Of a DNA stretch of 64,000 nt, positions 36,001 through 62,377 are shown in pieces. The notes below the pieces were generated by a model that saw nothing but the letters and a program-made list of their open reading frames with translations, made no database searches and had not been told where the DNA came from. This stretch comes from Eledone cirrhosa (lineage: Eukaryota), in NCBI GenBank assembly GCA_964016885.1, contig OZ024746.1, forward strand, positions 95,852,001-95,916,000. The letters run 5' to 3'. Positions within the stretch are counted from its first letter, which is position 1, and the number at the start of each line of letters is the position of its first letter. The position numbers and the translations under genes were made by a program.

Positions 36001-39000
36001 GATTAAATCTGACAGGGGTGTATTTATACAAAATATATCAACAATCAAGCCAGGAATTTATGATATAAACATGGAAAGACAAACTAAAAGTAAAACATTA
36101 ACATTCAACTCAACTTTAGCTGAAAAGACTAGACATATTCCGAATATATCAAGTAGTACAGAACCTTGGCAAAAGTTGCTCCCTCTATTAACAACTTTTC
36201 AGTTGGGAGAGAAAAATATTTCTGATTTGGTAGTTAAAGCATCCACAGTCTTTTTAGTGGCTACAGTTAGTAAAGAACCAACTAGTACTGATTTTACCAG
36301 GATTGATAGGTTTTACACCAATTACAGTGAAACTGGTGACAAATCTACATCGATAAAGGATATATTTACTCCAGACATAAAGAAAGGAGAAAGGAAATTG
36401 ATATCAGTTTCCAATGTTTCAATTGATATAGGACTTACAAAAGATCCTTTAGAAAGTCATAAAACATTTATTAGCATTTCAGATGTTTGTGATAGTTCAT
36501 CTGTTACTGGGATATTACATTTAAGTCAATGGAAAACCACAATACATCCAGAAGATGTAAATATTTCATTAATTTATAAACCTGATAAGAATTTCACTCA
36601 AGAACATAGAACATCAATTGGCATATATGAGCAAGAGAAAGACAAAGAAGTATCTTTTAATAAGACAGCAATGCTACATTTTAAAAATCTTACAGCTGTA
36701 GCCAGTGTAATTATACAATCACAGACCAGTTATCAATATCGATCTCCAATAACTACAACTGTAAAACTGGTAGCAACAGTTACTTCAATATACCAAACTT
36801 TAACATTACCACACTATCAGCCAAATATATCCTCAAGTCCGACATTGAAACCTTCAAGTGATCTGTATGACAGTTCCTTTCCCCTTAACCTCACCACTGA
36901 TAGATTATTGACAGGAGATATTGAAGCAATGACAAGTTTATCAATAGATTCTACAGAATCATCTTCTTTCAAGGCTTTAGACAGAATATTACCAGGATAT
37001 AAAAAACTACTTAATACCAGCCTTATACAAGTAACAAAATATATTTCATTTGCTCAAACAGCTACATATGACTCTAGAATATCTTATCAAATTGATAGAA
37101 AAATATTAAAAATCATAACCCCAACATATTCCCTCCAAAATATATCAACTTCAACAGTCAAATCATATAGATACAGGCATGATTATCACACTGCATCTGA
37201 AGAAGTACTTAGTTCTGAGCCATACACCCTTCAGCAGACATCAAAAGATGTTTATAGTGATGTGTTTATAATATTTACATCAAAAATAAAGCCTCATAGC
37301 CATAGTGAATATGATCTACTTCTAACAGACAAGACTCTTTTGCCTTTTAGATCAGTTCTATATTTTAATCTGTCATCTTCAAGTAAGCAATCTGAAAATG
37401 TCACAATTCCACATCATATGGTTGCTATTTCAAAACATGAAGCAATTATTACTGAAACAAGACAAACAAATATAACTACAACATCGGGAATATTTCAAAC
37501 AGAGATTGAATTAACTACTGAAATATCCGAACAAAATATCACTATAACATACATCACAGCAACATTAAAAAATTTCAGTTACGTATATATATCACTGGTT
37601 AAGACAGATCTTGAGATACCCATTACAAGCATTTCTTTATATGATACAACCATATTTATTTTACCATTATCAACTTCATTGTCACCAGTCTTTATAAATG
37701 TATCAGCAGTAAATATCACAGTATCTATTCTACATACATCTATTTCTCCATCAGAAGCTAGAGTATCTATTATGACCACTTCTCTCTCAGCACTAAATAT
37801 ATCATTAACTTTCCTACATACATCTGCATCCACAATAGCCACATCAGTATCATATATATACAAACAACTGTCTACTCCACAGATGTCCATAGATATTCAA
37901 GATACATACACATCAGTCTATAGATTAGATGCATCAAAACCATTTATACATACATCACTGTACCCATTAAATGTAACAGCATCAATCATACATACACCCC
38001 TGTACCCATTAAATACAACAGCAATAATCTTTCATACATCCCTTTACCCATTAAATGTAACAGCAGCAGTCATGTATTCATCATTCGGTCCATTAAATTT
38101 AACAGAAATAGTCTTGCAGACATCCCTATACCAATTAAATTTGACAACACCACTCACACATACATCACAGTACCCATTAAATGTAACTGCACCAATACAT
38201 ATATCAGACTACCAATTAAATGTAACTGCACCAATTCGTACATCACACTACCCATTAAATACAACAGCATCAGTCATACATACATCCATGTACCCATTAA
38301 ATACAACAGCATCAGCCATCCATCCATCCATGTACCCATTAAATACAACAGCACCAGCCATACATACATCCATGTACCCATTAAATACAACAGCATCAGC
38401 CATACATACATCCATTTACCCATTAAATACAACAACATCAGCCATACATACATCCATGTACCCATTAAATACAACAGCATCAGTCATATATACATCCATG
38501 CACCAATTAAATACAACAGCATCAGTCATACATCCATCCATATACCCATTAAATAAAACAATGCCAGCCATACATTCATCCATGTACCCATTAAATACAA
38601 CATCACCAGCCATACATACATCCATGTACCCATTAAATACAACAACATCAGTCATACATACATCCATATACCCATTAAATACAACAGCATCAGTCATACA
38701 TACAACCATATACCCATTAAATACAACAGCACCAGCTATATATACATCCATGTACCCATTAAATACAACAGCATCAGTCATACATCCATCCATGTACCCA
38801 TTAAATACAACAACAACAGTCATACATACATCCATGTATCCATTAAATACAACAGCACCAGCCATACATACATCCATGTACCAATTAAATACAACAGCAT
38901 CAGTCATACATACATCCATGTGCCCATTAAATACAACAACATCAGCATTACATACATCCACGTACCCATTAAATACAACAGCATCAGTCATACATACATC

Positions 39001-42000
39001 CATGTACCAATTAAATACAACAACATCAGCATTACATACATCCACGTACCCATTAAATACAACAGCATCAGTCATATATACATCCATGCACCAATTAAAT
39101 ACAACAGCATCAGTCATACATCCATCCATATACCCATTAAATAAAACAATGCCAGCCATACATTCATCCATGTACCCATTAAATACAACATCACCAGCCA
39201 TACATACATCCATGTACCCATTACATACAACAGCATCAGCTATATATACATCGATGTACCCATTAAATACAACAGCATCAAACATATATACATCCATGTA
39301 CCCATTAAATAGAACAGTATCAGCCATACATACATCCACGTACCCATTAAATACAACAGCATCAGTCATACATCCATCCATGTACCCATTAAATACAACA
39401 TCATCAGCCATACATACATCCATGTACCCATTAAATACAACAGCATCAGCCATACATCCATCCATGTACCCATTAAATACAACAGCATTAGTCATACATA
39501 CATCCATGTACCCATTAAATACAACAGCATTAGCCATACATACATCCACGTACCCATTAAATACAACAGCACCAGTCATACATACATCCACGTACCCATT
39601 AAATACAACAGCACCAGTCATACATACATCCACGTACCCATTAAATACAACATCATCAGTCATACATACATCCATGCACCCATTAAATACAACAGCAATA
39701 GTTCTGCATACATCGATATACCTATTAACTGTAACAGCCCCAATCATGCATATATCAATATATGCATTAAATGTAACAGCTGTAAATATATATACATCAA
39801 CATACCCATTATATATGTCAACATTATACACACCTGCAGCAGTAGATATATATACATCAACATACCCATCACATATGTCAACATTATACACACCTGCAGC
39901 TGTAGATATATACACATCAACATACCCATCACATATGTCAACATTATACACCCCTGCAGCAGTAGATATATATACATCAACATACACATCACATATGCCA
40001 ACATTATACACACCTGCAGCTGTAGATATGTATACATCAACATACACATCACATATGTCAACATTATACACCCCTGCAGCAGTAGATATAAATATGACAA
40101 TGTTAGACACAAACACAACAATGTATCTATCAACTATGTCAACAGCAGATATGTCAACAGCAGATATGTCAACAGCAGATATGTCAACAACAGATATGTC
40201 AACAGCAGATATGTCAACAACAGATATGTCAACAACAGATATGTCAACAACAGATATGTCAACACCAGATATGTCAACAACAGATATGTCAACAACAAAT
40301 ATGTCAGCAGCAGATATGTCAACACCAGATATGTCAACAATAGATATGTCAACAACCGATATGTCAACAACAGGTATGTCAACAACAGATATGTCAACAA
40401 CAGATATGTCAACAACAGATCTGTCAACAACAGATATGTCAACAACAGATATGTCAACAAAAGATACGTCAACACCAGATATGTCAACAACAGATATGTC
40501 AACAGCAGATATGTCAACACCAGATGTGTCAACAACAGATATGTCAACAACAAATATGTCAACACCAGATATGTCAACACCAGATATGTCAACAACAGAT
40601 ATGTCAACAACAAATATGTCAACACCAGATATGTCAACAGCAGATATGTCAACACCAGATATGTCAACAACAGATATGTCAACGACAGATATATCAACGA
40701 CAAATATGTTAACAGATATGTCAACAACAGATTTGTCAACAACAGATATGTCAACACCAGATATGTCAACACCAGATATGTCAACAACAGATATGTCAAC
40801 AACAGATATGTCAACAACAGATATGTCAACAACAGATTTGTCAACAACAGATATGTCAACAACAGATATGTCAACAACAGATATGTCAACAACAAATATG
40901 TCAACAGCAAATATGTCAACAACAGGTATGTCAACAACAAATATGTCAACACCAGATACGCCAACAACAGATACGTCAACAACAGATATGTCAAAACCAG
41001 GCATGTCAACAACAGATATGTCAACAACAGATATGTCAACAACAGATATGTCAACAACAAATATGTCAACAACAGATATGTCAACATCAGATATGTCAAC
41101 ACCAGGCATGTCAACAACAGATTTGTCAACAACAGATATGTCAACAACAGATATGTCAACAACAGATATGTCAACAACAAATATGCCAACAGCAGATATG
41201 TCAACAACAGGTATGTCAACAACAAATATGTCAACACCAGATACGCCAACAACAGATACGTCAACAACAGATATGTCAAAACCAGGCATGTCAACAACAG
41301 ATATGTCAACAACAGATATGTCAACAACAGATATGTCAACAACAAATATGTCAACAACAGATATGCCAACATCAGATATGTCAACACCAGGCATGTCAAC
41401 AACAGATATGTCAACACCAGATATATCAACACCAGATATGTCAACACCAGATATGTCAACACCAGGCATGTTAACAACAGATATGTCTACAACAAATATG
41501 TCAACAGCAAATATGTCAACAACAGATATGTCAACATCAGATATGTCAACACCAGGCATGTCAACAACAGATATGTCAACACCAGATATATCAACACCAG
41601 ATATGTTAACACCAGATATATCAACACCAGATATGTCAACAACAGATATGTCAACACCAGGCATGTTAACAACAGATATGTCTACAACAAATATGTCAAC
41701 ACCAGATATACCTACATCAATGTACCCTACAGATATGTCAACACCAGATATACCTACATCTATGTACCCTACAAATATGTCAACACCAGATATACCTACA
41801 TCTATGTACCCTACAAATATGTCAACACCAGATATATTTACACCAATGTACCCTACAAATATATCAACAGATATACCTACACCAATGTACCCTACAGATA
41901 TGTCAACACCAGATATACCTACATCTATGTACCCTACAAATATGTCAACACCAGATATACCTACATCTATGTACCCTACAAATATGTCAACACCAGATAT

Positions 42001-45000
42001 ACCTACATCAATGTACCCTACAAATATGTCAACACCAGATATACCTACACCAATGTACCCTACAAATATATCAACAGATATACCTACACCAATGTACCCT
42101 ACAAATATATCAACAGATATACCTACAGCAATGTACCCTACAAATATGTCAACATCAGATATACCTACACCAATGTACCCTACAGATATACCTACAGCAA
42201 TGTACCCTAGAAATATGTCAACACCAGATATACCTACACCAATGTACCCTAGAAATATATCAATATCACATATACCTACACCAATGTACCCTACACATAT
42301 ATCAACATTAGATATACCTACACCAATGTACCCAGTAAATATATCAACAACAGATATACCTACATCAATGTACCCTACAAGTGTCTCAACATCAGATATA
42401 CCTATATTAATGTACCCAGTAAATATGTCAACATCAGATGTACCTACATTAATGTACCCCTCAAATATATCAACAGATATACCTACATCAATGTACCCTA
42501 CTAATATGTCAACAACAGATATACCTACATTAATGTACCCTACAGATATGTCAACATCAGATATAACTACTTCAATGTACCCTACAAATATATCAACAAC
42601 AGACATAGATATCTCAATGTACCCATTAAGAGTATCAACATCATTTGATGTATCATCACTTACTGAAATACTTCCTCTTTATACAACTATATCCCCACTG
42701 GATATGACCATATCTCATCCCCATGCCTCAATATCTATATCAAATATATCGGTATTCCCTCCACTTACAACAGTATATCCACTGAGCATATCAGTATCTC
42801 ATTTATATACCTCGATATCCATAATGGATATGTTAGTATCCCATCCATACACCTCAATATCCTCCTTAGATTTATCTCTAGCACAACCAAATACAACAAT
42901 ATCATCATTACATGCATCATTATTCTATACTAAAGCACCAAAGCCTCCATTTGATAAACCAATATCCTATCAGTTTACAGCAACGTCACCCTTAAGTATA
43001 TCTAAGCCACATACAGTATCCACGCCACATGCTTCATCAATCTCAATAAATATATCTATATCCCCTTTACATACATCAATATCTCCATTGGATATATCAG
43101 TATCATCTTCTCAAACATTGATATCTCTATTGGATACAGCAGTATCATTTTTATCTACATCCATATTCCCAATAAAGTATTCAGTATCACTTTCCGACAC
43201 ATCTCCGTCTCCTTCAGATATGTCCATCTCATCTACATCTGTATCTTATCTGGATGTATCAGAATCCCTCTCAGAGATATCAGTATTGCCACTGAATATA
43301 TCCCTACCACATACATCCATGTTTCCACTAGACATATCAGTATCAATATCACCATTAGATATCATTGTGTCTCAACAACAAATACCAGAATCACTTTCTG
43401 ATATGTCACTGTCACCATTCGGTATATCTTTTCCCCAAACATCTATTTCACCATTAGACATATCAGTACCTTTTCCCTATACCCATGACTCCCTATTTCA
43501 TAAATCAATGCTCTATTCTCATTCCCAAATATTTACAAGGGATACATCAATATCCCTTGTAAACACATCAGTAATTCCATTGAATGTAACAGGGTCTTAT
43601 CCACATATATTAATGCATTCATTGACTATATCAGTACCTCTCTCACATACACCAGAATCTGTTGTAGATACATCTGTATCCCCTCTATATATATCACTAT
43701 CACCAACAGATATATCATTATACTCATCACCAACATCAATTTATCCAAGGGATGTCTCACTATATTCTTCACATACACCAATTTATCCAAGGGATGTCTC
43801 ATTATATTCTTCACAAACATCAATTTATCCAAGGGATATCTCATTATATTCTTCACATACACCAATTTATCCAAGGGATATATCATTATATTCTTCATAT
43901 ACACCAATTTATCCAATGGATATATCATTATACTCATCATATACACCTATTTATCCAAAAGATATTTCATTATACTCATCATATACACCTATTTATCCAA
44001 GGGATATATCAATGTATTCTTCCCCTATATCAATATTCTCATCAGATACGTCCTACTCCATTCTACAGACATCACCATCTACACTGGGTGCACCAGTGTC
44101 ACTTCAACATATACCAATGTCTACACATGATATGCCAGTAACATTTTCATACAGTTCACCATTCCCACATTCACTGGATGCCCCATTATCAGTTCCATAC
44201 ACAGTGTTATACTCACTAACTATGTCAACGTTATCTAAGATTCCATTAAATGTATCAATATCTTTTACAAACACATCTCAATTCTCCCTTTATATTTCCA
44301 CATCCCTTCCATCTTCAACCATATTTTTCCATCAATTATCATTATTTCATGTGGAAACAAACATAAGTTACCAGCCTACATCCTTTTCTCCTCAGAAAAT
44401 GTCAGACATATTTTCACATAAGGAAATGTTTTCCCAGAATAGGACTGTATCTCCTTTGTCTATATCTACCCAATCTAAATCAAGTGACTATTTATCAGTT
44501 CCTATAGTAAGTACTTATATTTCCATAGTAAAAGAAAGATATATAAGTTCAACAAAATATCCAGAAACAAAACTAATAGAAAAAACACATCGGAAATATA
44601 AAACTCCTATTTCTACAGCTTATATTATTTTTTCTAAGTATTTGACCAGTGATCTTAACAAAACAGATAAATTTGACAAAATGGCGACCTCTAGTTATTA
44701 TATTGGGACAAGAATAAAACAGGAATTAAATCAAACAAAATATTTTTCTACCATAACATATCAAAATGGAACATTATTTCACGAAACATCTTCAGTTTTA
44801 CTCAGAGCATTGAATGGCAGTACATTAACAGTATGGATTAAAGATGTGGATACATATCAGCAAATATCACGAAAACCCACTATAAAGGCTACAGTTCCAT
44901 TTAAAACAAGAACTGACAGTATTTCACAACCTTTACAGCAAATATCAAGACAACCCCATACAAAGACTATAGTTGCATTTAAAACAAGGGTTGATAGTAT

Positions 45001-48000
45001 TTCACAACCTTTACAGCAAATATCAAGACAACTCACTACAAAGGCTACAGTTCCATTTAAAACAAGAGCGGACAATATCTCACAACCTTTACAATTTCTT
45101 CCAAATGAGACATCAAGTGTTTTATTAACTAAACATTTAACTAGTAGTGAGGACAAAATCCTGCTGATTTCTTCTAGAGATATTAAAATAATTGAAATAA
45201 GTCTGGTTACAGAGAATTTTACTGTGGAAGTGCCAGAAATAACCACAGAAACTGTTCTAATAACAGGACAGCTGAAGTATGTACCACATATTTCCTATGT
45301 TCATGAAAATATGAGTATGTCTGGTTTGGAGACCTCTGATAAAACACAGACAATGTTTGTGGGGTCAAGGAAGACAATAGCAGCAGTAAAACCATATTTA
45401 GAACCATATATTTCTGTTAAATCTGGTATTTTCTACAGTATTTTGATATCAACTGATGCAACACATTTAAGAGAAATATCCAGCAAGGAAAGGAAAAGTT
45501 CAGTTGAAGCAATGGACTTTAAAATATCATTACAACCCCTGAATGTGACCTTATACCAAACTGATGTCTTAACAACAGCAACTCCACTCAACGTGACCTT
45601 ATACCGAAGTGATGTCTTAACAACAGCAGCTACACTCACAACTGCTCCACTCACGACAACTGCTCCACTCACAACAACAGCTCCACTCAATGTGACCTTA
45701 TACCAAACTGATATCTTAATAACAACAGCTCCACTCAATGTGACCTTATACCAAACCGATATCTTAATAACAACAGCTACACTCAATGTGACATTATACC
45801 AAAGTGATATCTTAATAACAACAGCTCCACTGAATGTGACCTTATACAAAAGTGATGTCTTAACAACAGCAGCTCCACTCACAACAGCCACTCCAGTCAC
45901 AACAGAAGCTCCACTCACAACAACAGCTACACTCAATGTTACCTTATACCAAACTGATATCTTAACAAAAACAGTTCCACTCACGACAACTGCTCTACTC
46001 ACAACAGCTCCACTCAATGTGACCTTATACCAAACTGATATCTCAACAACAGCTACACTCAATTTGACAGCTCCACTCACAATTTCTCCATTCAATGTGA
46101 GTATATACCAAACTAATATTTCAACTACAGAAGCTCCACTCATAACAGCAGTTACATTCACAACTGCTCCACTCAATTTGACCTTATACAAAACTAATAT
46201 CTTAACAACAGCAGCTCCACTCATGACAACTTCTCCACTCTCAACAACAGATACACTCACAACAGCTCCACTCAATGTGACCTTATACCAAACAGATATC
46301 TTAACGACAACAGCTACACTCAATGTGACCTTATACAAAACTGATATCTTAACAACTACTCCACTCACAACAACTGTTCCACTTAATGTGACCTTATATC
46401 AAACTGATATCTTAACAACAACAGCCACACTCACAACAGTAGCTACACCCACAAAAGCAGCTACACTCACAAAAACAGCTCCACTCACAACAACATCTCC
46501 ACTCACAACAACAGCTCCACTCACAACTACTCCACTCAATGGGAGTATGTACCAAACTAATATTTCAACTACAGAAGCTCCACTCACAACAGCAGCTACA
46601 CTCACAACAACAGCTCCACTCAATGTGACCTTATACCAAACTGATATCTTAACAACAGCAGCTCCACTTACAACTGCTCCACTCACAACAACAGCCCCAC
46701 TCACAACAGCTTCACTCACAACAGCTTCACTCACAACAACTTCACTCACAACAACAGCTCCACTTACAACTGCTCCACTCAATGTGAGTGTATATCAAAC
46801 TAATATTTCAACTACAGAAGCTCCACTCACTACAGCTTCACTCACAACAACAGCTGCACTCACAACAACAGCTTCACTCACAACAACAGCTCCACTCACA
46901 ACAACAGCTGCACTCACAACAACAGCTTCACTCACAATAACAGTTCCACTCACAACAACAGTTGCACTCACAACAACAGCTTCACTCACAACAACAGCTC
47001 AACTCACAACAACAGCTCCACTCACAACAACAGCTCCACTCACAACAACAGTTCCACTCACAACAACAGCTCCACTCACAACAACAGCTCCACTCACAAC
47101 AACAGCTCCACTCACAACAACAGTTCCACTCACAACAACAGCTCCACTCACAACAACAGCTCCAATCAATGTGAGCTTATATGAAACTGATATCTTAACA
47201 ACAACAGCTCCACTCACAATAACAGCTCCACTCACAACAACAGCTCCTCCACTCAATGTGAGTGTGCATCAACCTAATATTTCCACCACAATGGCTACCA
47301 CTAAAATAACTACAAGACACTTTATAACATCAAAGCCACAGATATTAAAATATTCTGCTACAACTTTATATAATGATACCACTGTATATTATAGTAAAGC
47401 TAGGGATGTGATAACATATACAGATAGTGAGATATATAGTTATACCACTGTATATTATAGTAAAGCTAGGGATGTGATAACATATACAGATAGTGAGATA
47501 TATAGTTATACCACTGTATATTATAGTAAAGCTAGGGATGTGATAACATATACAGATAGTGAGATATATAGTCTGATAGATAACACAACTTTTATATATC
47601 GCCTTAGTGATAATACGACCTTGACTTATGGTGTTTCAGATAGTACGACCTTGACTTATGGTGTTTCAGATAATAGGACCTTGACTTATGGTGTTATAGA
47701 TAATAGGACCTTGACTTATGGTGTTACAGATAATACGACCTTGACTTATGGTGTTATAGATAATAGGACCTTGACTTATGGGATTACAGATAATATGACC
47801 TTGACTTATGGTGTTATAGATAATAGGACCTTGACTTATGGGATTCCAGATAATACGACCTTGACTTATGGTGTTATAGATAATAGGACCTTGACTTATG
47901 GTGTTATAGATAATACGACCTTGACTTATGGTGTTTCAGATAATAGGACATTGACTTATGGTGTTATAGATAATACGACCTTGACTTATGGGATTACAGA

Positions 48001-49322
48001 TAATACGACCTTGACTTATGGTGTTATAGATAATACGACCTTGACTTATGGGATTACAGATAATACGACCTTGACTTATGGGATTCCAGATAATACGACC
48101 TTGACTTATGGTGTTATAGATAATAGGACATTGACTTATGGTATTATAGATAATACGACCTTGACTTATGGTGTTTCAGATAATAGGACATTGACTTATG
48201 GTGTTATAGATAATACGACCTTGACTTATGGGATTACAGATGGATTTCACAAATATAATAAAACAATTAGTTTTGTAAATGGTACAATATCTTCTGTAGA
48301 TATCACAACTTCTAAATCTAATGAAACATATAGATTTGTAGATATAACAACATATTCTTATAGATTTAAAGATAATATTAGTTATACTGTAGATTTTATA
48401 AAAACAACTATTAAATCTTCTGATACATCTATATTTTCCGTAACTTCTACACAAAGCAGCATCTTAGAATACTCATGGGTAGCTTTAAATATTACAAGTT
48501 CCTCTTTATTCAAATTAACTAGTTATTTGTCAGAATTCAATAAAACAACTCAAAGGCCTAGTAGAATATTATCTGATGCTTATTTAACCACAGTTTCACT
48601 GTTGTATGATGACTCTAGGAAAACAGTTAAGAGTTATGATACAGAAAGCCAAACCCAAAAGCTTAAAAGCTTTCTTTATCATACACCATTACATAATAGA
48701 TCTACTACTGAACATTTTATTTCAAAAACTACTGATAGTTTAAGAGGTGAAAATATTACTATTGTATCAGATCCCACTTTTATTGGTCATTTGCTAGTAA
48801 GTACTTTATTAAAAACAGAATATACTAAAACATCTCACCAACCTCTGCTAAGTTCTGGCATAAGATTATTGGACCAAGTCTATAAATCCACACAAATATA
48901 TTCAGGGAATGTTTCCGATATTTCTTCTGCAAAGCCTGTTCCATCAAGTTCCAGTAGGAATGGAACTTTAGAGGCAATGCCAGAAAAAACTTCTGTATTT
49001 TTTTATGTAAAACATTCATTGAAACCAAAACTAGAAAATCACACTTCTTCCCCATTTATGAAAGGTTACAGCTCAATACAACCAGAACACATCTCAACTG
49101 ATGCCCTATATACAAATACTATTGACTTACTATCAACAGCTGACAAAACTGTAACTGTTATACCGGTGTCTTTTACAATAGATACTAGCTTGGAATCAGC
49201 AGTGACACCTACTGTTAGCCAACATATCACCATCACTTCAGAAACTGCTACTACAACTTATAATCTGATAACAAATGGTAGTTATATACCAAAACTGACA
49301 ACTCCATTTGTTAAAGAAACAG
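2..49322 (+). CDS. Giant internal coding exon (>=49.3 kb, 5'-truncated by window) of a mucin-like protein; Thr/Ser/Pro-rich tandem-repeat stalk
   Basis: Frame +2 is open from base 2 (PIVRTTKLEDSTEKAITMK...) through ORF 53..49333. It ends at ACAG|GTAAGA (GT at 49323-49324, phase 1), three codons before the ORF stop. All repeat-unit indels keep the frame, and the phase matches the next exon. Confidence 0.88.
830..4920 (+). repeat. Coding tandem array, 45 bp / 15 aa (TSGDITAVSTIPDHV); homogeneous to ~3800, then degenerate
   Basis: Unit gacatctggagatataacagcagttagtactataccagaccatgt is directly visible. Confidence 0.97.
5620..6065 (+). repeat. Short coding array based on an 11-aa unit (PTLSDITTAIS) alternating with ISSVIDK segments
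   Basis: Repeated accaacattatcagatataacaac segments. Confidence 0.85.
9100..9830 (+). repeat. Coding array, 45 bp / 15 aa (TSGDIATGVTIPDYI)
   Basis: Repeated ccagactatattacatctggagatatagcaactggtgtgacaata. Confidence 0.93.
13220..14665 (+). repeat. Coding array, 21 bp / 7 aa (EQITSLP/EQVTSLS)
   Basis: Repeated agaacagataacatctctgcc. Confidence 0.96.
15029..15170 (+). repeat. Three near-identical 45-bp copies (RHVASQDMANITSIT)
   Basis: Direct triplication visible in DNA and protein. Confidence 0.92.
16030..20736 (+). repeat. Coding array, 45 bp / 15 aa (TSGDTTTVTAISDHV, with AVSR/AISG variants), very homogeneous
   Basis: Repeated aacatctggagatacaacaacagtcactgctatatcagaccatgt, about 100 units. 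Confidence 0.98.
21635..25795 (+). repeat. Coding array, 45 bp / 15 aa (STDTPDVSTVHSDII)
   Basis: Repeated tctacagacacaccagatgtcagtactgtacacagtgatataata, with a 225-bp higher-order unit near the 3' end. Confidence 0.97.
33238..33680 (+). repeat. Coding array, 18-19 aa (DISPVYSTLNYTDITDIPK) carrying NYT/NYS sequons
   Basis: Repeated gatatatccccagtctattctacattaaactacacagatatta. Confidence 0.9.
34613..35601 (+). repeat. Coding array, 39 bp / 13 aa (TDISPQGTYYSTV)
   Basis: Repeated gacagatatatcaccccaggggacatattactctacagt, with a 345-bp higher-order duplication. Confidence 0.96.
37945..39790 (+). repeat. Coding array, 42 bp / 14 aa (YPLNTTASAIHTSM), N-glycosylation sequon in nearly every unit
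   Basis: Repeated tacccattaaatacaacagcatcagccatacatacatccatg. Confidence 0.96.
39782..40090 (+). repeat. Coding array, 60 bp / 20 aa x5 (VDIYTSTYPSHMSTLYTPAA)
   Basis: Five consecutive 60-column lines align. Confidence 0.94.
40136..41700 (+). repeat. Coding array, 15 bp / 5 aa (MSTTD/MSTPD)
   Basis: Repeated atgtcaacaacagat, about 100 units, with a 285-bp higher-order duplication. Confidence 0.97.
41693..42625 (+). repeat. Coding array, 42 bp / 14 aa (MSTPDIPTSMYPTN)
   Basis: Repeated atgtcaacaccagatatacctacatctatgtaccctacaaat. Confidence 0.94.
43709..44025 (+). repeat. Coding array, 42 bp / 14 aa (DISLYSSHTPIYPR)
   Basis: Repeated gatatctcattatattcttcacatacaccaatttatccaagg. Confidence 0.92.
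44858..45092 (+). repeat. Three copies of a basic 78-bp / 26-aa unit (QQISRQ.TTKATVPFKTR.DSISQPL)
   Basis: Visible triplication. Confidence 0.88.
45535..47275 (+). repeat. Composite array of TTTAPL hexapeptides and LNVTLYQTDIL units
   Basis: Repeated acaacaacagctccactc and ctcaatgtgaccttataccaaactgatatc. Confidence 0.93.
47378..47572 (+). repeat. Three copies of a 66-bp / 22-aa unit (TTVYYSKARDVITYTDSEIYSY)
   Basis: Essentially identical triplication. Confidence 0.93.
47609..48241 (+). repeat. Coding array, 30 bp / 10 aa (DN[T/R/M]TLTYGV[I/S/T])
   Basis: Repeated gataatacgaccttgacttatggtgttata, about 21 units. Confidence 0.96.
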
Positions 49323-49412
49323 GTAAGAATTAGCTGGTGATTTTAAATGTTATATTATGAAGGTGGTTCAAATTTAAGAGGGATTAAATTAAAGATTTAT
49401 ATTATACATACA

Positions 49413-49415
<3 letters not shown>

Positions 49416-49455
<40 letters not shown>

Positions 49456-49461
49456 TATTAT

Positions 49462-49497
<36 letters not shown>
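49416..49497. repeat. (TA)n microsatellite; others include (TA)n ~50478 and ~53268, (GT)n ~54343, (GTT)n 59540-59800, (CA)n ~61460
   Basis: Directly visible. Confidence 0.95.
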
Positions 49498-49500
<3 letters not shown>

Positions 49501-49602
49501 TTCTAAGAATGTCAACATGAATGGGCCTGTTATTTTTATCTAAAGACATTTTTTCTAATTCCAACCTGCCTGTCCCTTCAATATATCTTATTTCTCATTC
49601 TT

Positions 49603-49638
49603 TCTTCTGATGAAGGACTAGCGTCCGAAACGTCAAGA
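49603..49638 (+). ncRNA. Minimal type I hammerhead ribozyme motif (Penelope-associated type)
   Basis: tctt-CTGATGA-a-ggac(tagc)gtcc-GAAA-cg-TC-aaga: intact core, 4-bp stem II, and TCTT/AAGA stem I. The tiny palindromic stem III is typical of dimer-acting metazoan minimal HHRs. Confidence 0.8.
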
Positions 49639-49904
49639 CCCTCTCTCTGCTATTTCAAGCGTTAACCTAATATATTCCTTCCATATACTGTACCAATTGT
49701 GTTGTTATTTCTGTTTACCTTTTACATACACATATATATATATATGACAATGTCACTGGACCGAAATCTTTGGCGCTACGCAGTAATACAGAAGACCCGC
49801 CTTGCCTAAGTACAAAGCGAAACCTCCAGTCAGTAGGCACCTCTTAACCAAAATACATCCCGTCCCACTACGCCTACCCCCACCTCCATCTACACCACCC
49901 CTTT

Positions 49905-50192
49905 CGCTGTAAAGTTATGTTGGTACCACAACATCCAGTCCTAAATAAATGAGGTCGTGTAGGTGTCACGACAAAAAAAACACACAGTCCACGCTGTAAT
50001 GTGGCCGTGTAGGTAACACGATAAAAACCTCCCAGTCCACACTGTAAACATGGTTGGTGTTAGGAAGGGCATCCAGCCGTAGAAAACCTGCCAGACAGTC
50101 CTACACGAGCAAGACAACCAATCTTGGGACAATTCCCATCTAAACCCATGTTAGTGTGGAAGATAGACGTTAAACAATGATGATGATGATGA
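49905..50192 (+). mobile_element. SINE-like interspersed repeat (tgtaaa..tggttggtgttaggaagggcatccagccgtagaaa ... gacgttaaa-(gat)n tail)
   Basis: Same family recurs at ~54690-54962 and ~55236-55570; microsatellite tail and internal ~47-bp duplications. Confidence 0.7.
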
Positions 50193-50272
50193 TATATATA
50201 TATATAGTGTAGGTAGTATGGTGAAATACTAGTGTTGGTACCAAATCAAGCACTCTATGCACAGGCAGAGTG

Positions 50273-50473
50273 TATATAATAGAAAAAATGAAGAAGTTTC
50301 GTTTACATACGAAAAATATTTTGTTGCATCACCAGTCTGAGGAGCAGATCGATACTGGAGTCAGGTCCATAACTCCTATGGGTCACCTTGAGCCAATCCT
50401 CTGTGAAACACGTGTAACAGGTTGATACGCAATAAATATTTTTCATATGTAAACGAAACTTCCTTGTTTTTTC

Positions 50474-50482
<9 letters not shown>
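50273..50482 (+). ncRNA. Type I hammerhead motif with long stem II insert, embedded in a ~60-bp-arm fold-back
   Basis: CTGAGGA 50337-50343, stem II gcaga/tctgt, GAAA 50405-50408, palindromic stem III ACACGTGT, UA cleavage site. Flanks agaaaaaatgaagaagtttcgtttacatacgaaaaatattt and aaatatttttcatatgtaaacgaaacttccttgttttttct are inverted repeats. Confidence 0.7.
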
Positions 50483-50522
<40 letters not shown>

Positions 50523-50859
50523 CACACATATATATGTGTGTGTGTATATGTCTAACCCATGCAAAACATGGAAAATAGATGTTAATTGGTGATAATGGTA
50601 TATATATATATATTGTTTCTCTGGCGACCAGCTTGAGGCACGATCGATGTGATGATCGAACCTGACTCTGAAAATCGCAAGGTCCTCAGATACGTCTTGA
50701 TTCTATGAAGCAGATTTTCCTATGAATTTCCATTCGTCGCAACACTGATTCGCTTATTTTTTGTGGTATCATACTCTGCTCTATGAGAGCATTGAGTGCT
50801 CATACGGCCTACCGCATACGGACGTTTTAAGCATCCAACACCAATTATATATATATATC

Positions 50860-51097
50860 ACCTTGATCACCTTGACTGACCAGTCTGTCAGGCGTCCATT
50901 CGGTGCCGCTGGTCAAAGCACGCCGTCCATTCCTCTCTGGATCGGGCTTTCCTCATCCATGTAGTCCCAATCGTATTCCTAAAATCGTAACTCCACCCTC
51001 ATGCGGGTACCACTTGGCAACTGCACGGGTCCACCGATATTCGGTGAACCGGGCAACGTGTCCAGCCCATCTGAACTTGCTGCGCAGATATTCGTGA
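50860..51097 (-). mobile_element. 3' fragment of an RTE-clade LINE
   Basis: Minus strand reads ...SKFRWAGHVARFTEYRWTRAVAKWYP... then (frame break) ...TTWMRKARSREEW..., the typical RTE ORF C-terminus. A short tandem (caaggtgat) tail follows. Confidence 0.8.
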
Positions 51098-51523
51098 TTA
51101 ATATAGAAATGTCTTCTACTGGACTAGAAACCATTTCTATATTAAACATGATGTTTACACTCTACTTATGTATTGAGTACCATACTTACTATGGTTACCC
51201 CCGATTGAACCCAGGTCTCTACATACATACATATATGGTGGCTGCCAACTCGTTTTCGAGTACGGCCACTACTTTATATCCATGTAGGAGAACCCCTACC
51301 GATGCGCTGAACGAGTGTGACTTTTGAGTCCAGCCAGCGACTTGAAAACTCTGGTACAAACACTACACCTGCGACAATTATTGACACATAGTGCTGGGCC
51401 CATGGTACCATGTGACGACAAGTGCAGAGAGATCTCCAGATATAAAGCAATGCCTGTGCCGTGAAGCTTTTATAGTGAGCAACATACATATATACATTCA
51501 TACATACACACATATATATATAT

Positions 51524-51556
<33 letters not shown>

Positions 51557-51682
51557 TGAATACTTTTAGTAATGCTATGAAATAATTGTATTTTCACAGC
51601 ACAATTCGATAATAATCATTTGAAATTTAATTATCCAATGATCACATATATATAGTATAATACTGTTGTGTATGTTTTATAG

Positions 51683-52147
51683 CAATGGTCTCTAACCTTT
51701 TTTATACCACGGACCGGCTTCATGCTCGACAATATTTCCACGGACTGGTAGTTGTGTATATGTGTTATCTAAGTGCATTTTGATAAAGAGAACAACAATT
51801 GTTTCTACTTTTGACACAAGGCCAGCAATTACCCCAGTGCATTACTGGTACTTTATTTTATCGACCCCGCAAGGATGAAAGCAAAGTTAACCTCGGTGGG
51901 ATTTGAACTCAGAATGTTCAAATCCCGCCGAGGTTAACAATAATAAAAACAGTAATTTATTAAAGGGAAGAAAAAGTGTATTGAGTTGATGAATATTGAA
52001 TATTTAAACAAATCTTTCTAAATTAAAGTCCAATATTCAATTTATCTATTATATAATTTTAAACAAGTTAATTATTTTGTTGCGGCCCGGTAGCAAATGA
52101 TACATGGACTGGTACTGGCCCACAGCCTGGTGGTTGGGGGACCTCTG
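51683..52147. mobile_element. hAT-Charlie-type non-autonomous DNA transposon (MER1/Charlie3-like termini) with nested SINE
   Basis: Termini caatggtctctaacctttttt...ccacggaccgg and ...tgcggcccgg...ggttgggggacctctg. Degenerate 8-bp TSD ttttatag/ctttataa. Confidence 0.75.
51796..51915 (-). mobile_element. tRNA-derived SINE fragment (family of 61085-61270) nested in the hAT MITE
   Basis: Reverse complement matches ctgagttcaaatcc...aactttgcctttcatcct..cggggtcgataaaataaagtaccagt...gctggccttgtg. Confidence 0.78.
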
Positions 52148-52907
52148 CTTTATAAGATTTACTTGTTATATTACAGTTCTGTAACTCTAATAAAAATCTA
52201 TAGATGCAGGCACTGCTGTGTGGATAAGGAATCTGCTTGGCTACAACATAATTCTGGCTTGACAAATGCCTTGCGAGTGGGATTTACTGGACGGAAATTA
52301 CAGAAACCCATTTTATATATCATCATCATCATCATTTTACATCCGCTTTCTTTGCTGGCAATATTTGAACAGGTCATCATAATCCAAGGCTAGATGATAT
52401 ATATATAAATGTATATATATATATATATAAGTGTATATATAGTATATTTGGCAATATACTGTATGTTTAATTAAAAACATTTTGAAGACCATTCGCTATG
52501 AGTTTTAAAGAGGTGACTATGTCACTTACTTATTTTCGGTAAAAAAAATTGAAGAATGATCAACAGTCTGTTTCTCGCTTGTTAGCGTTTATCAAGACCT
52601 CTCACTCCTTTGCTTCTGTAGAGAATTATAGAAGCTGGATTCTTATAGAATTCCAGTAATATTTAGGAGCAGATTAAACAGCGATTACTGGTCCAGCAAA
52701 AATTAGGTATTAGTATTGGTGCTCTGAAATAGTGATGTATATATGAATGTATGTATAGTATATTTGGCAATATACTGTATATATATATAAATATATATAT
52801 ATAATATATATATATATAAATAAAATATAGAGTTAATAACTCATATAGATACCCTGCAATTAACAAGCTCAAAGTATAAATACTGAGCATTATAATATTA
52901 ATGTGTG

Positions 52908-53004
52908 TAGAAGTAAACATAGTAAACCCATGTCTAAAATTACGAGGGTAGATTACTAATCTACCCTCGTAATTTTAGACACAGGTTTACTGTATTTACT
53001 TCTA
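52908..53004. repeat. 97-bp near-perfect palindrome (48-bp arms, 1-nt spacer)
   Basis: ...tgtctaaaattacgagggtagatta-c-taatctaccctcgtaattttagaca...; four mismatches, all in the outer half. Confidence 0.92.
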
Positions 53005-53160
53005 TATATATATGATTATGTCAAAGAATGAGTTTTACAGTAGATTGGAAGCACTCAACATAAAATAATTTTCAGGAGTTATTAATATTAAAATATAAGT
53101 ATTAATAAAATACTACCTTGATTAAATCTTAACCATTTAACATCTCAGGGTATGTCATGT

Positions 53161-53230
53161 ATCATTATATTTTGTCTGATGAGGACGTACTGTTGTACAT
53201 CCGAAATATGTATAATAAAATGTAATTGAT
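53161..53230 (+). ncRNA. Type I hammerhead ribozyme motif
   Basis: attatattttgt-CTGATGA-ggacgtac(tgtt)gtacatcc-GAAA-tatgta-TA-ataaaatgtaat. Stem I is 12 bp with two G-U pairs; stem II is 8 bp with one mismatch. Confidence 0.75.
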
Positions 53231-53261
53231 CAAAAGATCATCTATTTTATTAATACTTATA

Positions 53262-53306
<45 letters not shown>

Positions 53307-53386
53307 CAAAAACACCGAAGATTCAAAGCATTATCAAACTGACATATGTTTCTGCCAGCTTAAAAATTTCCACTCTTCGGCCATAA

Positions 53387-53937
53387 TCTATATATCTAAA
53401 ACAGAGAATGTCTGTCGGTCTGTCTGTCTGACTCCCTAACCACCCAACCGATTGTTTTCAAACTTTACACATGTAATACTTATGGTCCTGTGAGTGTTCT
53501 GAGCAAAAATATATTTCAAATTTTCAATGCCCTAGGGGCCGCATTAGGCGATTTAGCGATCTCTCTCTATAATTCTTAGTCTTTCTTTTTAGATAGATAC
53601 ATAGATATAACGTTCCGCCCTTATAATATCTGTCTGTATGTCTGGCTGTCTGCATTACGACATTATGACGCTGTGTGTGTATGTATATATATGTATATAA
53701 GTGTGTGTATATATATAGTGTGTAACATTTTTCGAAATATTTACTTCTGCATTCACAGATTGATTTTTTTAGTTTCAGAAGATCCCGTTAAGGGTGAAAG
53801 CAGCGATTCTTTGCTTAAACTTTAATCTATTATCACAATAACAAAATATAAACAAACGTATTTATGAAACTCAATAAGGATAAATATATATAAGAACCCT
53901 AGAGCAAATCCCGAGTAACGCCGGGCCATTCTGCTAG
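53387..53937 (+). mobile_element. Non-autonomous Helitron
   Basis: 5' A|TCTATATATCTAAAA followed by (GTCT)n. 3' GC-rich hairpin cccgagtaacgccggg just before CTAG|T. Inserted in an AT dinucleotide with no TSD. Confidence 0.78.
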
Positions 53938-54082
53938 TATAATTCTAAAATATTATAATTTTATAACTTAACCAAACATACATCAGTTTGATAATGTTTT
54001 GAATCTTCAGTGATTTTGAAATTAATATATAACAGTTCTGCGTGACTGCCATTCCACCTGGAAATATTTTGACTCAAATCTA

Positions 54083-54171
54083 CACATCTGATGAGCAGAT
54101 CAATACTCGAGTCAGGTCTATTGTATTGATTAAGTCCTAGAGCTAACCATCTGTGAAACACATGTCATATT
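54083..54171 (+). ncRNA. Degenerate hammerhead motif, same family as the 50337 copy
   Basis: CTGATGA 54088-54094, gcagat/atctgt stem II, GAAA-cacatg-TC. Shares gagcagatc.atact.gagtcaggtc with the 50337 copy; stem I is weak. Confidence 0.6.
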
Positions 54172-54340
54172 CTACTTCATTCTTTCATGCATGTCAAAAC
54201 TCTATAACTACAAATATGTAATACACTGATACCATGCAAAGAACACAATTTCTGTTAGACTCACCCTGTTTAAGTAGTAGCATTGGGTGCTCGTATTGGT
54301 ATGGCCTACTATGATTAATAAACATTACTAAATATCCTAC

Positions 54341-54402
<62 letters not shown>

Positions 54403-54689
54403 ATATATATTGAAAAGAAAGCAAGGTTTCAGATTAAGATCTTTATTGATTATACACAGTTACCTCTGGTGCTATGCACTACTACAGAAACCCACCCTCC
54501 CATATGCTTGAGTTGAGGCATATATCTAATAGGCAATGCCTTCCTCTACCATTTCCCCTCCCATGCACCTCCATTTGCTGTAACCATTCCTCCCCTATTA
54601 CCTATGTCCTGAATTTTCCTAAGGATCCTCACCCACCCCCTAGTTCCCATCCCACACCATGTAGTGCCTCCCCCCCCATGTATCAAGAA

Positions 54690-54962
54690 GACAAAAGCAT
54701 CCAGTCTACACAGTAAAGTGGTTGTGTCAGCGACATGACAAAAAGTGCCCAGTCCACATTGTAATGTGGTCGTGTAGGTGATATGACAAAAAGCACCCAG
54801 CACACACTGTAAGTATGGTTGGTGTTAGGAAGGGCATTCAGCTGTAGAAGCCAAGCCAAAATCAGCCCCAGGTGGGCAAAACTTGGTCTTCTGACCTGAT
54901 TCATCCTATGCATGCTAGTGTGTAAAATGGACGTTAAATGATGATGATGGTGATGATGATGA
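54690..54962 (+). mobile_element. SINE-like repeat, same family as 49905-50192
   Basis: ggttggtgttaggaagggcattcagctgtagaa ... ggacgttaaatgatgatgatg. Confidence 0.7.
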
Positions 54963-56261
54963 TATATAATTATAAATACATATAAAATGAATTTGACTGG
55001 TGATTCTCCGTACTAGAAAGGAGAGCACAACCAGTAGCAATGGCAGTACAAGCACTGCAATAGATACATTCTTTTTAGTCTTCAGTGGCTAGGACGATCT
55101 CACTAATGTTAGTGGCATGATGGAATACACCCAGTACCTCCCTCCCCAGTAAATCTGTGGATGAACTAACTAAAACAACATAGGGTTGAGAGAGAATGGG
55201 GTTTTGACCCTGTTAGGGACTTGACAACCTCTCAAGTGTTGGTGCCATCATAAAATGCACCCAATACACTCTGTGAAGTGGTTGGCATTAGAAAGGACAT
55301 CCAGCCATAGAAAACTTACTAGACAAAGAGTTGGGGGAACTCATCAATTATTTCAAAGACATGACAGCCTCCTAAGTTCCAGTGCCAAGTCTAAAATGCA
55401 CTCAGTGCATGTGTAGGGTGTGGGAACATATGTAAGTGAGATTCCAGCCAGCCAGCCCCTCTGGTCTGCTTGAGAGATATGTAGCTCTAACTAAGAACTG
55501 ACTTGGTATGTGACAACACAGTTTGCTACAGGGAAAAATGGACATTAAATGATGATGATGATGATGATGGCAACAACTAGATTTCGAGTAATGCCCTCAT
55601 TTAATATTTAAGCATAAGCATCACGGACGTGGCTTTTTAGTCCTGCTAGGGACCTGCCTATGGCCATCCATGCTATGCATCGCAAAGAAATGTCACATAT
55701 TAAGCAACAAAAGGCTTTGCACGAGGCTAAACCCACTCTCTGAATATCAAATGCATTTGCCCAAAAAGAAGAACTGGTCTACATCATTCTCTCTTCTAGA
55801 GAGATGTTTTAATGAAGACTAGGAGTCTCTTGCTCCACCAAAAAAAAGCTTTATTGGATGGCCGTTGACTCTCCTGAGTTCCTCTGCCCTTTGACGGGTC
55901 TTGTTTTTCATCCCACAGGGTGTCCAAAGTCACCCTCCTCACCAAGCAAGCTTGGTGGGGTTGCCGGTTTAGTCACCGATAACCCGACCATGCACAGGTT
56001 GTACTGGGTTACATGTTACCAGTAGCGCTGAAGAGTGACCTGACATATACATACATATATACATACATACATACATTCATATATACATACATGCATACAT
56101 ATATGTGAGATTATATGTGTGTGATGATGATGATATACATTCATACATGCATACATGCATACATACAAACATACATACTTTCATATATACATGCATACAT
56201 TTATGTGTGTGATGATGATGATGATGATGATGATATATACTTTGTCTACTTTCCATTGCAG

Positions 56262-56377
56262 ACAAAACATTTTCATCTTTTGTTGGTGATGTCCTAAATG
56301 GGGATGATGAGTTATCCCCCCCTTTACACCTCCCTACCACTGTGGCTTTTGGTAAGGATTCTTATGATATTCTATAT
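56262..56377 (+). CDS. Exon: N-terminal part of NIDO-region (DKTFSSFVGDVLNGDDELSPPLHLPTTVAFGKDSYDILY)
   Basis: Acceptor tttccattgcag|AC and donor TAT|GTAAGT, phase 1 in and phase 0 out. The GDD..S..L.L....FG..Y..LY motif typically precedes (V/I)STNG in NIDO-containing proteins. Not in the ORF track; translated by hand. Confidence 0.85.
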
Positions 56378-58936: not shown

Positions 58937-59224
58937 ATTTCTACAAATGGTTACATAACATTTGGGAAGAAACAGAATTTTCCTTCACCTCAAAGATTTC
59001 CTGACCCTCCAAATGCTGCTATTATAGCCCCATTTTGGAGTGATTTGGTTGTGGATGAACCTGGCCGAGTAACATATAAATTCTTTGAAATAGGCAGCAA
59101 AAACTTCCATGCAGCAACGAAACTGATCAAGTCTCGTGATGAGAAGAGTTTATTTAAAAAATGGGTACTTATCATAACCTGGGAAAATGTCCAGCCGTCA
59201 AGTAGGCTAAAGAATATCACAGAG
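58937..59224 (+). CDS. Exon: NIDO domain (ISTNGYITFG...IIAPFWSDL...WVLIITWENV...)
   Basis: Acceptor gtattacag|ATT and donor GAG|GTAAGG; 288 nt, phase 0-0. Contains hallmark STNG, IAPFWxD and ITWENV motifs. Confidence 0.92.
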
Positions 59225-60636: not shown

Positions 60637-60850
60637 ATGGCCACCTTCCAGATGGCACTTGTCCCTACTAAGACAGAAAAAAGAACATTTTTCATCTTCA
60701 GTTATCTCCCTGGAATGCAATCTTGGACAAAAACACTGGAACATACCGAAGTATCCATTGGGTTCTCTGATGGAAACCACAACTATAAACAGAACAAGAA
60801 CTCTTTCTCGCCGTCTGCTCTGGAGTTATACCATATGAAGGGTAATACAG
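60637..60850 (+). CDS. Exon: NIDO domain C-terminal half (MATFQMALV...FIFSY...W...IGFSDG...KGNTG)
   Basis: Acceptor (t)n-cag|ATG with CTAAC branch-like site and donor ACAG|GTATGA; phase 0-1. TFQxxL, GFSDG and GNTG-xPGxW motifs match NIDO. Confidence 0.9.
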
Positions 60851-61951: not shown

Positions 61952-62377
61952 GCAAACCAGGTGTTTGGGTTGAAACAATTGAAAACGACTTAGACATGCG
62001 AAGGCAACAATGCTTAAACTATGCATATTCTTCCGACTACTGGACCAACGCTCTATCCCATACCTGTCCATGTATACAGACACAAGCAAAAGCAGATTTT
62101 CGATTTAAATTTGTTTCCAGAGAAAATGGTACTTTAAAATTTGAAAGTATTTTTTCCCAGAATGGTCTGAAAGAACAATGTGTTTATGGCAATAGTTCAT
62201 TTGGTGAAACATTGATCATAGGCAGTCCTTTAGGAGGTTCAATCAGTGTTGATAATACAGATACTCTCGATAAACGGATGAAGAAGTTTTGCTGTGAAGG
62301 AATTCCATCTTACTGTAATCAGTACTACAGTCGGAGACCATCATCAAGTTGCAAGAATTATCTTCCTCCGAAACTAG
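61952..62377 (+). CDS. Exon: end of NIDO plus AMOP domain (GKPGVW...QCLNY...CPCIQTQAKADFRF...QCVY...FCC...YCNQYYSRRPSSSCKNYLPP)
   Basis: Acceptor ttttacttcag|GC and donor CTAG|GTAAGT; 426 nt, phase 1-1. CPC...QA..D.RF, QCxY and CC...C..Y..RRP...C..Y.PP are AMOP hallmarks as in MUC4/SUSD2/Mesh. Confidence 0.92.

What the first reader, a model, noticed from the sequence alone, without database searches (positions are those of the whole stretch)
49603..54171. Four sense-strand hammerhead ribozyme motifs in the intron directly after the giant exon
Seen: CUGANGA...GAAA..UH cores with stems at 49607, 50337, 53176 and 54088, all on the transcribed strand; the first is ~285 nt after the donor. Established: minimal type I HHRs with palindromic stem III occur in Penelope-like elements and retrozymes and typically need dimerisation. 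Inference: these are probably PLE relics, but their density and uniform orientation raise the possibility of co-transcriptional cleavage of this pre-mRNA. The 50337 and 54088 copies are one family with ACACGTGT/ACACATGT stem III and could pair in cis.
Basis: partly seen in the sequence, partly recalled or inferred. Interest (0 to 1): 0.72.

Follow-up and report, generated by a model that had tools for sequence, protein, structure and literature searches.

The report
Penelope hammerhead relics in mucin intron
Four self-cutting-RNA motifs do sit in this intron, each inside a separate copy of a common jumping-gene end, a broken fifth one faces the other way, and sampled introns of other genes show no strand preference, so they are likely inert leftovers rather than a device for cutting the host RNA; three of the five carry an unusually long second arm whose predicted fold is conserved.

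Summary
The four type I hammerhead motifs are real and at the stated coordinates. Each motif lies in an independent dispersed repeat with Penelope-like (PLE) hallmarks. The 53176 family is traced to a Hydra-clade RT/GIY-YIG ORF. A fifth, 3'-truncated hammerhead at 50689 is antisense, so orientation is not uniform. Such motifs occur every 22-37 kb. In 553 kb of myosin gene bodies they run 11 sense to 14 antisense. 50337 and 54088 are different subfamilies; a cis dimer would have only 2-bp and 1-bp stem I, and 54088 is decaying. Against this reading, four insertions in 6.9 kb is a real density outlier (Poisson about 1e-4, from a descriptor tuned to these motifs). Side result: 50337, 54088 and 50689 belong to a superfamily with a ~60-nt covarying stem II (2,997 exact pattern matches in this genome). 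The scan noted long-stem-II hammerheads in this genome, and sense-strand intronic relics in other genomes, before. Cleavage was not tested and no RNA run was listed. The host is a MUC4-like mucin whose upstream reading frame runs 42,948 codons without a stop.

The parts
2..49322 (+). 3' part of a giant Thr/Ser-rich mucin reading frame; it continues about 79.5 kb upstream of the window
49323..56261 (+). Intron (6,939 nt, phase 1) holding all five hammerhead relics; at least 56% of it matches repeats found in a 1.14-Mb control sample
49498..49730 (+). Element A: 5'-truncated repeat between (TA)n tracts; minimal type I hammerhead, core 49607, stem I 4 bp, stem II 4 bp with an extra nucleotide, stem III ACGU, predicted cut after 49634
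50203..50321 (-). Element B, inverted 5' arm (antisense copy of the element's 3' tail); 50273-50321 is complementary to 50434-50482 (49 nt, 92%)
50312..50480 (+). Element B, sense arm: type I hammerhead with 61-nt stem II domain, core 50337, stem III ACACGUGU, predicted cut after 50416
50612..50723 (-). Element E: fifth, ANTISENSE long-stem-II hammerhead (core starts 50689, GAAAC 50619-50615), truncated by (TA)n before stem III and the cleavage site; its inverted arm follows to about 50850
53012..53112 (-). Element C, inverted 5' arm
53108..53270 (+). Element C, sense arm: 3' end of a Hydra-clade PLE; hammerhead core 53176, stem I 12 bp, stem III AUAUGUAU, predicted cut after 53214; identical to the family majority over 95 nt
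54059..54172 (+). Element D: old, decayed long-stem-II hammerhead, core 54088, predicted cut after 54166; substitutions break stems I, II and III
56262..56377 (+). Next coding exon, in frame with the giant exon and the NIDO exons
58937..59224 (+). NIDO exon (PF06119, E 1.6e-12)
60637..60850 (+). NIDO exon, continued (PF06119, E 2.2e-6)
61952..62377 (+). Cys-rich exon; AMOP-like by recollection, no Pfam hit

Best explanation
The five motifs lie in five separate dispersed-repeat copies, likely 3' ends of Penelope-like retroelements or their non-coding dependants that inserted independently at TA microsatellites of this intron, and they likely do not cut the host pre-mRNA to any functional extent. 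Shown: each motif sits in a repeat family; four of the five abut (TA)n; three have the PLE-type inverted 5' arm; ages differ; one family is continuous with a Hydra-clade ORF. Inferred mechanism: a PLE enzyme nicks (TA)n and copies the 3' end of its RNA. The hammerhead sits in that end, so it survives 5' truncation. TA-rich, repeat-rich DNA collects more such insertions, giving clusters. Orientation is a coin toss. The palindromic stem III gives at most 2 bp as a monomer, so activity needs a like partner or the PLE protein, and the unlike neighbours here cannot supply a matching stem I.
For: Repeat families. Inverted arms; 24 of 90 long-stem loci have an opposite-strand partner. Hydra link for C: RT and EN ORF pieces with CxCX5C, CxxC and CxH in L313. 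Its UTR matches L153 at 92.6% over 499 nt, and L153 matches window 53112-53275 at 89%. Clade features are from PMC8557442 section 11. Background: 16 motifs in 589.8 kb random sample, 0 in 1.77 Mb shuffled. Strand test: 25 motifs in 553,445 nt of 21 myosin genes, 11 sense and 14 antisense, p 0.69; relaxed 15 and 25, p 0.15; single-orientation insertions 3 sense and 7 antisense (hand count); family level 11 and 15, intact 5 of 11 versus 7 of 15. Insertion count rises with TA-array density, rho 0.35, p 1e-4, 119 tiles. Swap table: B core on D gives stem I 2 bp, D core on B gives 1 bp. Monomer stem III probability is at most 0.10 for all four. D carries stem-breaking substitutions. Literature: min-HHR monomer inactive and dimers weak (PMC4209133); an anole PLE hammerhead cleaves only with its protein (PMC11167929); splicing tolerated hammerhead cuts in introns (as reviewed in PMC2995048).
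Against: Density is a true outlier. Four independent intact insertions lie in 6.9 kb, while 0 of 119 control tiles had four and 1 had three; Poisson P is 5e-5 overall and 2e-4 for TA-rich tiles. The descriptor and profiles were built around these motifs, which inflates this but may not remove it. The intron is only in the top 30% for TA density. A, B and C keep intact cores and stems. A has GUC where most copies have GUU. No ORF link was found for A, B, D or E. One unexpected cross-pair is feasible on paper: C core on B substrate, stem I 5 bp and stem III 6 bp. The strand test (n=25-40) excludes only a strong bias.
Confidence: 0.85

Rival explanations
1. Incidental cleavage without function. 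A fraction of nascent mucin transcripts is cut, either by the 50337 monomer (stem I clamped by its own 49-bp inverted arm, long stem II possibly supplying a tertiary contact) or by homodimers in trans with neighbouring nascent chains or repeat RNAs. Splicing proceeds regardless.
For: Intact cores in A, B and C. The B-B stem III duplex is -10.3 kcal/mol, the strongest of 16 combinations. Adding flanks raises B stem I pairing probabilities from 0.04-0.09 to 0.31-0.77 at three of four positions. Inverted arm.
Against: B's core-adjacent stem II forms with probability only about 0.25 and stem III about 0.1. Published PLE hammerheads are slow even as dimers.
Confidence: 0.11
2. Co-option. The host keeps sense-strand hammerheads just after the giant exon to cut the intron in a race with splicing (as proposed for CPEB3), tuning output or releasing the giant 5' fragment.
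For: Four intact sense motifs in 6.9 kb, which no control tile matched. One more sense motif lies in a later intron. Precedent for a timed intronic ribozyme: PMC10919898, passages.
Against: Antisense fifth copy. No sense excess in other genes. D is decaying and A-C differ from family majorities no less in the ribozyme than elsewhere. Partners are incompatible. The cuts lie 2.1-6.6 kb from the acceptor, about 0.5-2 min at mammalian elongation rates (rate; not measured for this animal), far shorter than reported PLE hammerhead activity suggests.
Confidence: 0.03

Closest known systems
Minimal type I hammerheads in pLTRs of metazoan Penelope-like elements (Cervera and de la Pena 2014, PMC4209133; parts 1-2 of 4 read)
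   Same: CUGANGA/GAAA/UH core in type I order, palindromic short helix III, short helix I, extra nucleotide before stem II (49607), mostly solo copies from truncated elements, pairs on opposite strands.
   Different: 50337, 54088 and 50689 have a ~60-nt multi-segment stem II instead of 4-8 bp.
Hydra-clade PLEs and their hammerheads, including Hydra-1_Obim (Craig et al. 2021, PMC8557442; passages, section 11, supplement part 2 and search hits read)
   Same: (TA)n insertion, inverted 5'-truncated arm, sense-strand 3' hammerhead, variable 10.1-11.1 pair; the ORF upstream of family C has CxCX5C, CxxC and CxH and resembles Hydra-1_Obim RT by inspection.
   Different: Family C's hammerhead sequence differs from the listed Hydra-1_oBim one and its 3' UTR is about 1.6 kb. 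Listed Hydra stem II plus loop is 12-24 nt. Long loop 2 (29-35 nt) is listed only for two plant PLE-X elements flagged as deviating.
Metazoan non-LTR retrozymes (Li et al. 2026, 10.64898/2026.07.22.740005; part 1 of 5 and passages read)
   Same: Non-coding, type I hammerhead, PLE-related.
   Different: No tandem monomers here; only 2 of 90 long-stem loci had two same-strand motifs.
Co-opted intronic ribozymes: CPEB3 (PMC10919898, passages) and amniote intronic hammerheads (mentioned in PMC6765202, passages)
   Same: Sense-strand ribozyme motif in a host intron.
   Different: Those are described as single-locus and, for CPEB3, active as a monomer with a 2-3 min half-life; these are high-copy repeat members with no evidence of selection at this locus.
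MUC4-like mucins (NIDO-AMOP-VWD after a large PTS exon; PMC5354666, search listing only)
   Same: Host gene has NIDO and a weak VWD hit (E 0.003) after a Thr/Ser-rich region.
   Different: The open frame is 42,948 codons long; AMOP was not confirmed by Pfam.

Membership tests
Type I hammerhead ribozyme | CUGANGA, GAAA and UH in that order, with stems I-III | tested here: met
   for all four; covariation in the long-stem families, 89.3% of cells paired and 11 of 22 pairs with changes on both sides. 54088 has weak stems I and III; 50689 lacks the cleavage block.
Type I hammerhead ribozyme | Site-specific self-cleavage | not testable with these tools
   No assay possible; no RNA holder listed.
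PLE minimal hammerhead | Short palindromic helix III, implying dimer use | tested here: met
   ACGU, ACACGUGU and AUAUGUAU (with G-U) are self-complementary; ACACAUGU has lost it through one substitution from the family majority.
PLE minimal hammerhead | Stem II of 4-8 bp with a short loop | tested here: not met
   Met for 49607 and 53176; not met for 50337, 54088 and 50689 (60-63 nt).
Penelope-like element end | 5' truncation with inverted arm; insertion at microsatellite | tested here: met
   Inverted arms in B, C and E; (TA)n flanks in A, B, C and E. Not seen for D.
Penelope-like element end | Continuity with an RT plus GIY-YIG ORF | tested here: inconclusive
   Met for C through overlapping copies. 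Not found for A, B, D or E within the 1.5-7 kb examined.
Hydra-clade PLE (family C) | CxCX5C linker, CxxC and CxH in the EN, (TA)n targeting, 3' hammerhead | tested here: met
   L313 ORF pieces against the definition. Pfam gave no RT or GIY-YIG hit; the Atlas gave look-alikes up to 0.95, with RVT_1 on 14-15% of members of two clusters. No tree was built.
Non-LTR retrozyme | Tandem monomers each with a hammerhead | tested here: not met
   Single or head-to-head copies in the window; 2 of 90 loci with two same-strand motifs.
Non-circularly permuted (SGC/CSG) hammerhead | Blocks in SGC, CSG or GCS order (PMC10085705, passages) | tested here: not met
   Stems I and III covary in the standard CGS order.
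Host-co-opted intronic ribozyme | Locus-specific conservation across species | not testable with these tools
   No relatives are held for this genome.
Host-co-opted intronic ribozyme | Sense bias or better preservation on the sense strand | tested here: not met
   11 of 25 sense; intact 5 of 11 sense versus 7 of 15 antisense.

The most novel reading that the evidence does not exclude
The ~60-nt stem II, with its conserved AG-UCAGG / CCU-N-GA-G module, is a functional domain that lets these hammerheads cleave fast as monomers. The 50337 copy, whose stem I is clamped by its own inverted arm, then cuts the nascent mucin RNA 1.1 kb after a ~129-kb coding exon. Thousands of sense-strand intronic copies would do the same across the transcriptome, making exon tethering a routine requirement in this animal.
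Probability: 0.07. Interest if true: 0.75.

Novelty: new variant of a known kind. Interest (0 to 1): 0.3.

Why it matters
The finding as posed is ordinary: PLE-end hammerheads are published, also for octopus, and the sense orientation has no support as a signal. Two things keep some value. First, the long-stem-II superfamily (about 3,000 pattern-perfect copies, missed by Rfam) is a natural test of whether added stem II structure frees PLE hammerheads from dimer or protein dependence. Second, a genome with roughly 80,000 intact-looking motifs (extrapolated) and no strong antisense bias in the sampled introns implies either in vivo silence or tolerance of intron cutting, which one cyclic-phosphate sequencing experiment could decide.

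Tried and rejected
(1) Rfam: no hammerhead hit at E<=1. (2) RNA evidence: no RNA holder listed; the three runs behaved as DNA contigs and gave no splice, end or empty-site information. (3) Cis dimer 50337/54088: rejected on stem I. (4) Scrambled (SGC) topology, a lead from earlier notes: rejected, standard order covaries. (5) 'Anti-core' switch: RNAalifold's only consensus pairs joined the core CUG to the conserved CAG in stem II. Partition functions gave at most 0.15 in full-length RNA for 10 clusters, and 0.45-0.51 in truncated prefixes for two of them, so it is not supported. RNAalifold did not recover my structure on the MAFFT alignment; the structure was assigned by hand and then counted. 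(6) K-turn reading of the conserved loop: did not fit on inspection. (7) ORF links for A, B, D and E: none; the GIY-YIG near a long-stem motif in L178 is a separate insertion. The upstream walk for A returned coordinates only. (8) Long-stem pattern: 0 matches in metagenome and viral contigs; these collections hold little animal DNA, so this says little. (9) Literature: eight searches showed no description of this stem II module or of strand bias of intronic PLE hammerheads. Lunse et al. 2017 and Fong et al. 2009 were not held and are known only through PMC6765202 and PMC2995048. Lunse's variant catalogue, bioRxiv supplements and most of the Craig supplement (1 of 59 parts read, plus search hits) may contain long-stem forms. 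PMC5785220 was opened by mistake and is irrelevant; PMC3365414 gave nothing usable.
Full report
Setting. The window is G000:C6:95852001-95916000 of a 3.0-Gb genome. I take it as octopus-like from recalled repeats and earlier scan notes; this was not tested. One frame is open from 2 to 49333. Adding flanks extends it to 42,948 codons, starting about 79.5 kb upstream. Downstream exons are 56262-56377, 58937-59224, 60637-60850 and 61952-62377. Two hit NIDO, and a later one hits VWD weakly. The host is therefore a MUC4-like mucin transcribed on +, and the intron in question is 49323-56261.

Observation. All four cores, stems and cut sites are as stated and beyond chance: 0 hits in 1.77 Mb of shuffled genome sample and 2 in 200 shuffles of a 9.6-kb stretch. 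Rfam missed them. The same scan shows a CUGAGGA on the minus strand at 50689. It scores E 2e-18 to a profile of the 50337/54088 superfamily, whose training set included other copies of its own family. Those copies end in a complete hammerhead; the window copy is cut off after GAAAC by (TA)n. So the intron holds five insertions, four sense and one antisense.

What they are. Each motif is part of a dispersed repeat. First-look candidates (lower bounds, not copy numbers) were 1,831 for A, 2,762 for B, 18 for C, 161 for D and 2,244 for E; a later upstream probe of C gave 698. A, B, C and E abut (TA)n. B, C and E have an inverted copy of their own 3' tail at the 5' end, the arrangement described for PLE insertions (PMC8557442 passages). 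For C, I walked upstream. L313 holds broken RT and endonuclease ORF pieces with the Hydra-clade CxCX5C, CxxC and CxH motifs. Its UTR matches L153 at 92.6% over 499 nt, and L153 matches the window copy at 89% over 164 nt. Pfam did not recognise the ORF, and the Atlas gave only partial RVT_1 support. No ORF link was found for A, B, D or E, so they may be non-coding dependants. Ages differ: C equals its family majority over 95 nt, A differs at 4 of 85, B at 6 of 124, and D at 12 of the first 97 positions, several breaking stems (the last 7 listed differences are an indel artefact).

Background and strand test. The descriptor that captures the four motifs finds 16 in 59 evenly chosen 10-kb tiles (589.8 kb; one requested tile did not exist). 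I mapped myosin-head exons and fetched 60 tiles, 553,445 nt, in 21 genes of known strand. Four tiles lie just downstream of a head exon and are assumed intragenic, and the tiles include exons. They hold 25 motifs, 11 sense and 14 antisense (p 0.69); a relaxed descriptor gives 15 and 25 (p 0.15); reversed-sequence controls give 0 and 1. Profile searches that include degenerate copies give 11 and 15, with intact cores in 5 of 11 and 7 of 15.

Density, the result against my reading. Collapsing head-to-head pairs by hand leaves 32 insertions in 1.14 Mb. None of 119 tiles has four and one has three. Poisson P for four in 6.9 kb is 5e-5, or 2e-4 for TA-rich tiles. Insertions track TA-array density (rho 0.35, p 1e-4), but this intron is only in the top 30% for TA. 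Three things soften this: the descriptor was tuned to admit the weak 54088 motif, a second descriptor passes only two of the four, and a 3-Gb genome offers about 4e5 such intervals, so tens of clusters are expected by inference. PLEs are also reported to insert beside earlier copies (PMC6765202 passage). I regard the cluster as an insertion hot spot, not fully explained.

Could they cut? As monomers, stem III forms with probability at most 0.10. In a double hammerhead, stem I is swapped between copies (reasoned from the topology; dimer model in PMC4209133). For 50337/54088 the swap leaves 2 and 1 contiguous stem I pairs. The only plausible unlike pair is the 53176 core on the 50337 site (5 and 6 pairs), which competes with 53176's own 12-bp stem I. 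D does not fold as a hammerhead. Published PLE hammerheads were inactive as monomers and weak as dimers, or needed the PLE protein. Splicing survived hammerhead cuts in introns but not a fast HDV ribozyme (secondary account). No RNA data were available.

The long stem II. 50337, 54088 and 50689 share this layout: proximal stem of about 9 bp; 2-3-nt bulge; 3 bp (UGG/CCA or CAG/CUG); a 2x1 AG/G loop; UCAGG/CCU-N-GA with one variable bulged base; and a variable terminal hairpin. On 26 hand-picked sequences, 89.3% of cells pair against 76.1% in shuffles and 28-43% in slid controls, and 11 of 22 pairs change on both sides (first version). The sequences fall into a few related subfamilies, so these are not independent events. 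The inner five pairs show no two-sided change, and RNAalifold alone did not recover the fold. A pattern for the motif has 1,514 forward and 1,483 reverse exact matches and 0 in the control. The published table I read lists 12-24 nt for Hydra stem II plus loop, with longer loops only in two deviating plant elements. My searches found no description of this module, but the main variant catalogue was not held. Earlier scan notes report long or oversized stem II hammerheads elsewhere in this genome; I could not tell whether they are the same families (one search returned nothing).

Verdict. The motifs are real, the origin is known, and host-directed cleavage is unlikely (about 0.03 as a function, about 0.11 as a by-product). 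The elongated stem II is a modest new variant. Interest 0.3.

Noticed in passing
window 2-49322 plus L081-L088 (G000:C6 about 95,772,570-95,901,322): One stop-free frame of 42,948 codons (T 17%, S 12%, I 10.5%), with a candidate acceptor about 79.4 kb upstream of the window. If it is one exon it is about 128.7 kb and the mucin exceeds 43,000 aa, far above exon sizes I recall. DNA contigs of the species match its last 5 kb; no RNA support; in-frame introns are not excluded. This is probably more interesting than the assigned finding.
   Followed up: partly
L059:1293-1391, L097:4819-4917, L178:2660-2758: A long-stem-II subfamily with core CCGUCGA instead of CUGANGA (U4 and A6 both changed) but stems kept; either a dead but spreading lineage or a core variant.
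   Followed up: no
L193-L206, L282-L311: Many long-stem subfamilies have an unpaired 10.1-11.1 position (C-A, A-A, U-A) and a mismatch at stem II pair 4.
   Followed up: partly
L255:4964-6931: Array of identical hammerheads at 310-nt spacing (six antisense, one sense) inside a myosin gene; retrozyme-like.
   Followed up: no
L071:2761 (+), about 2.8 kb past the window end: Another sense hammerhead in a later intron of the same mucin gene; one sense and two antisense motifs lie upstream of the giant exon.
   Followed up: partly
window 49634: This copy has GUC at the cleavage triplet; most family A copies have GUU.
   Followed up: no
window 52909-53003: Near-perfect ~95-nt palindrome just before element C, probably a MITE-like repeat.
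   Followed up: no
G000 whole genome: 10,596 first-look GIY-YIG candidates: PLEs are very abundant here.
   Followed up: partly
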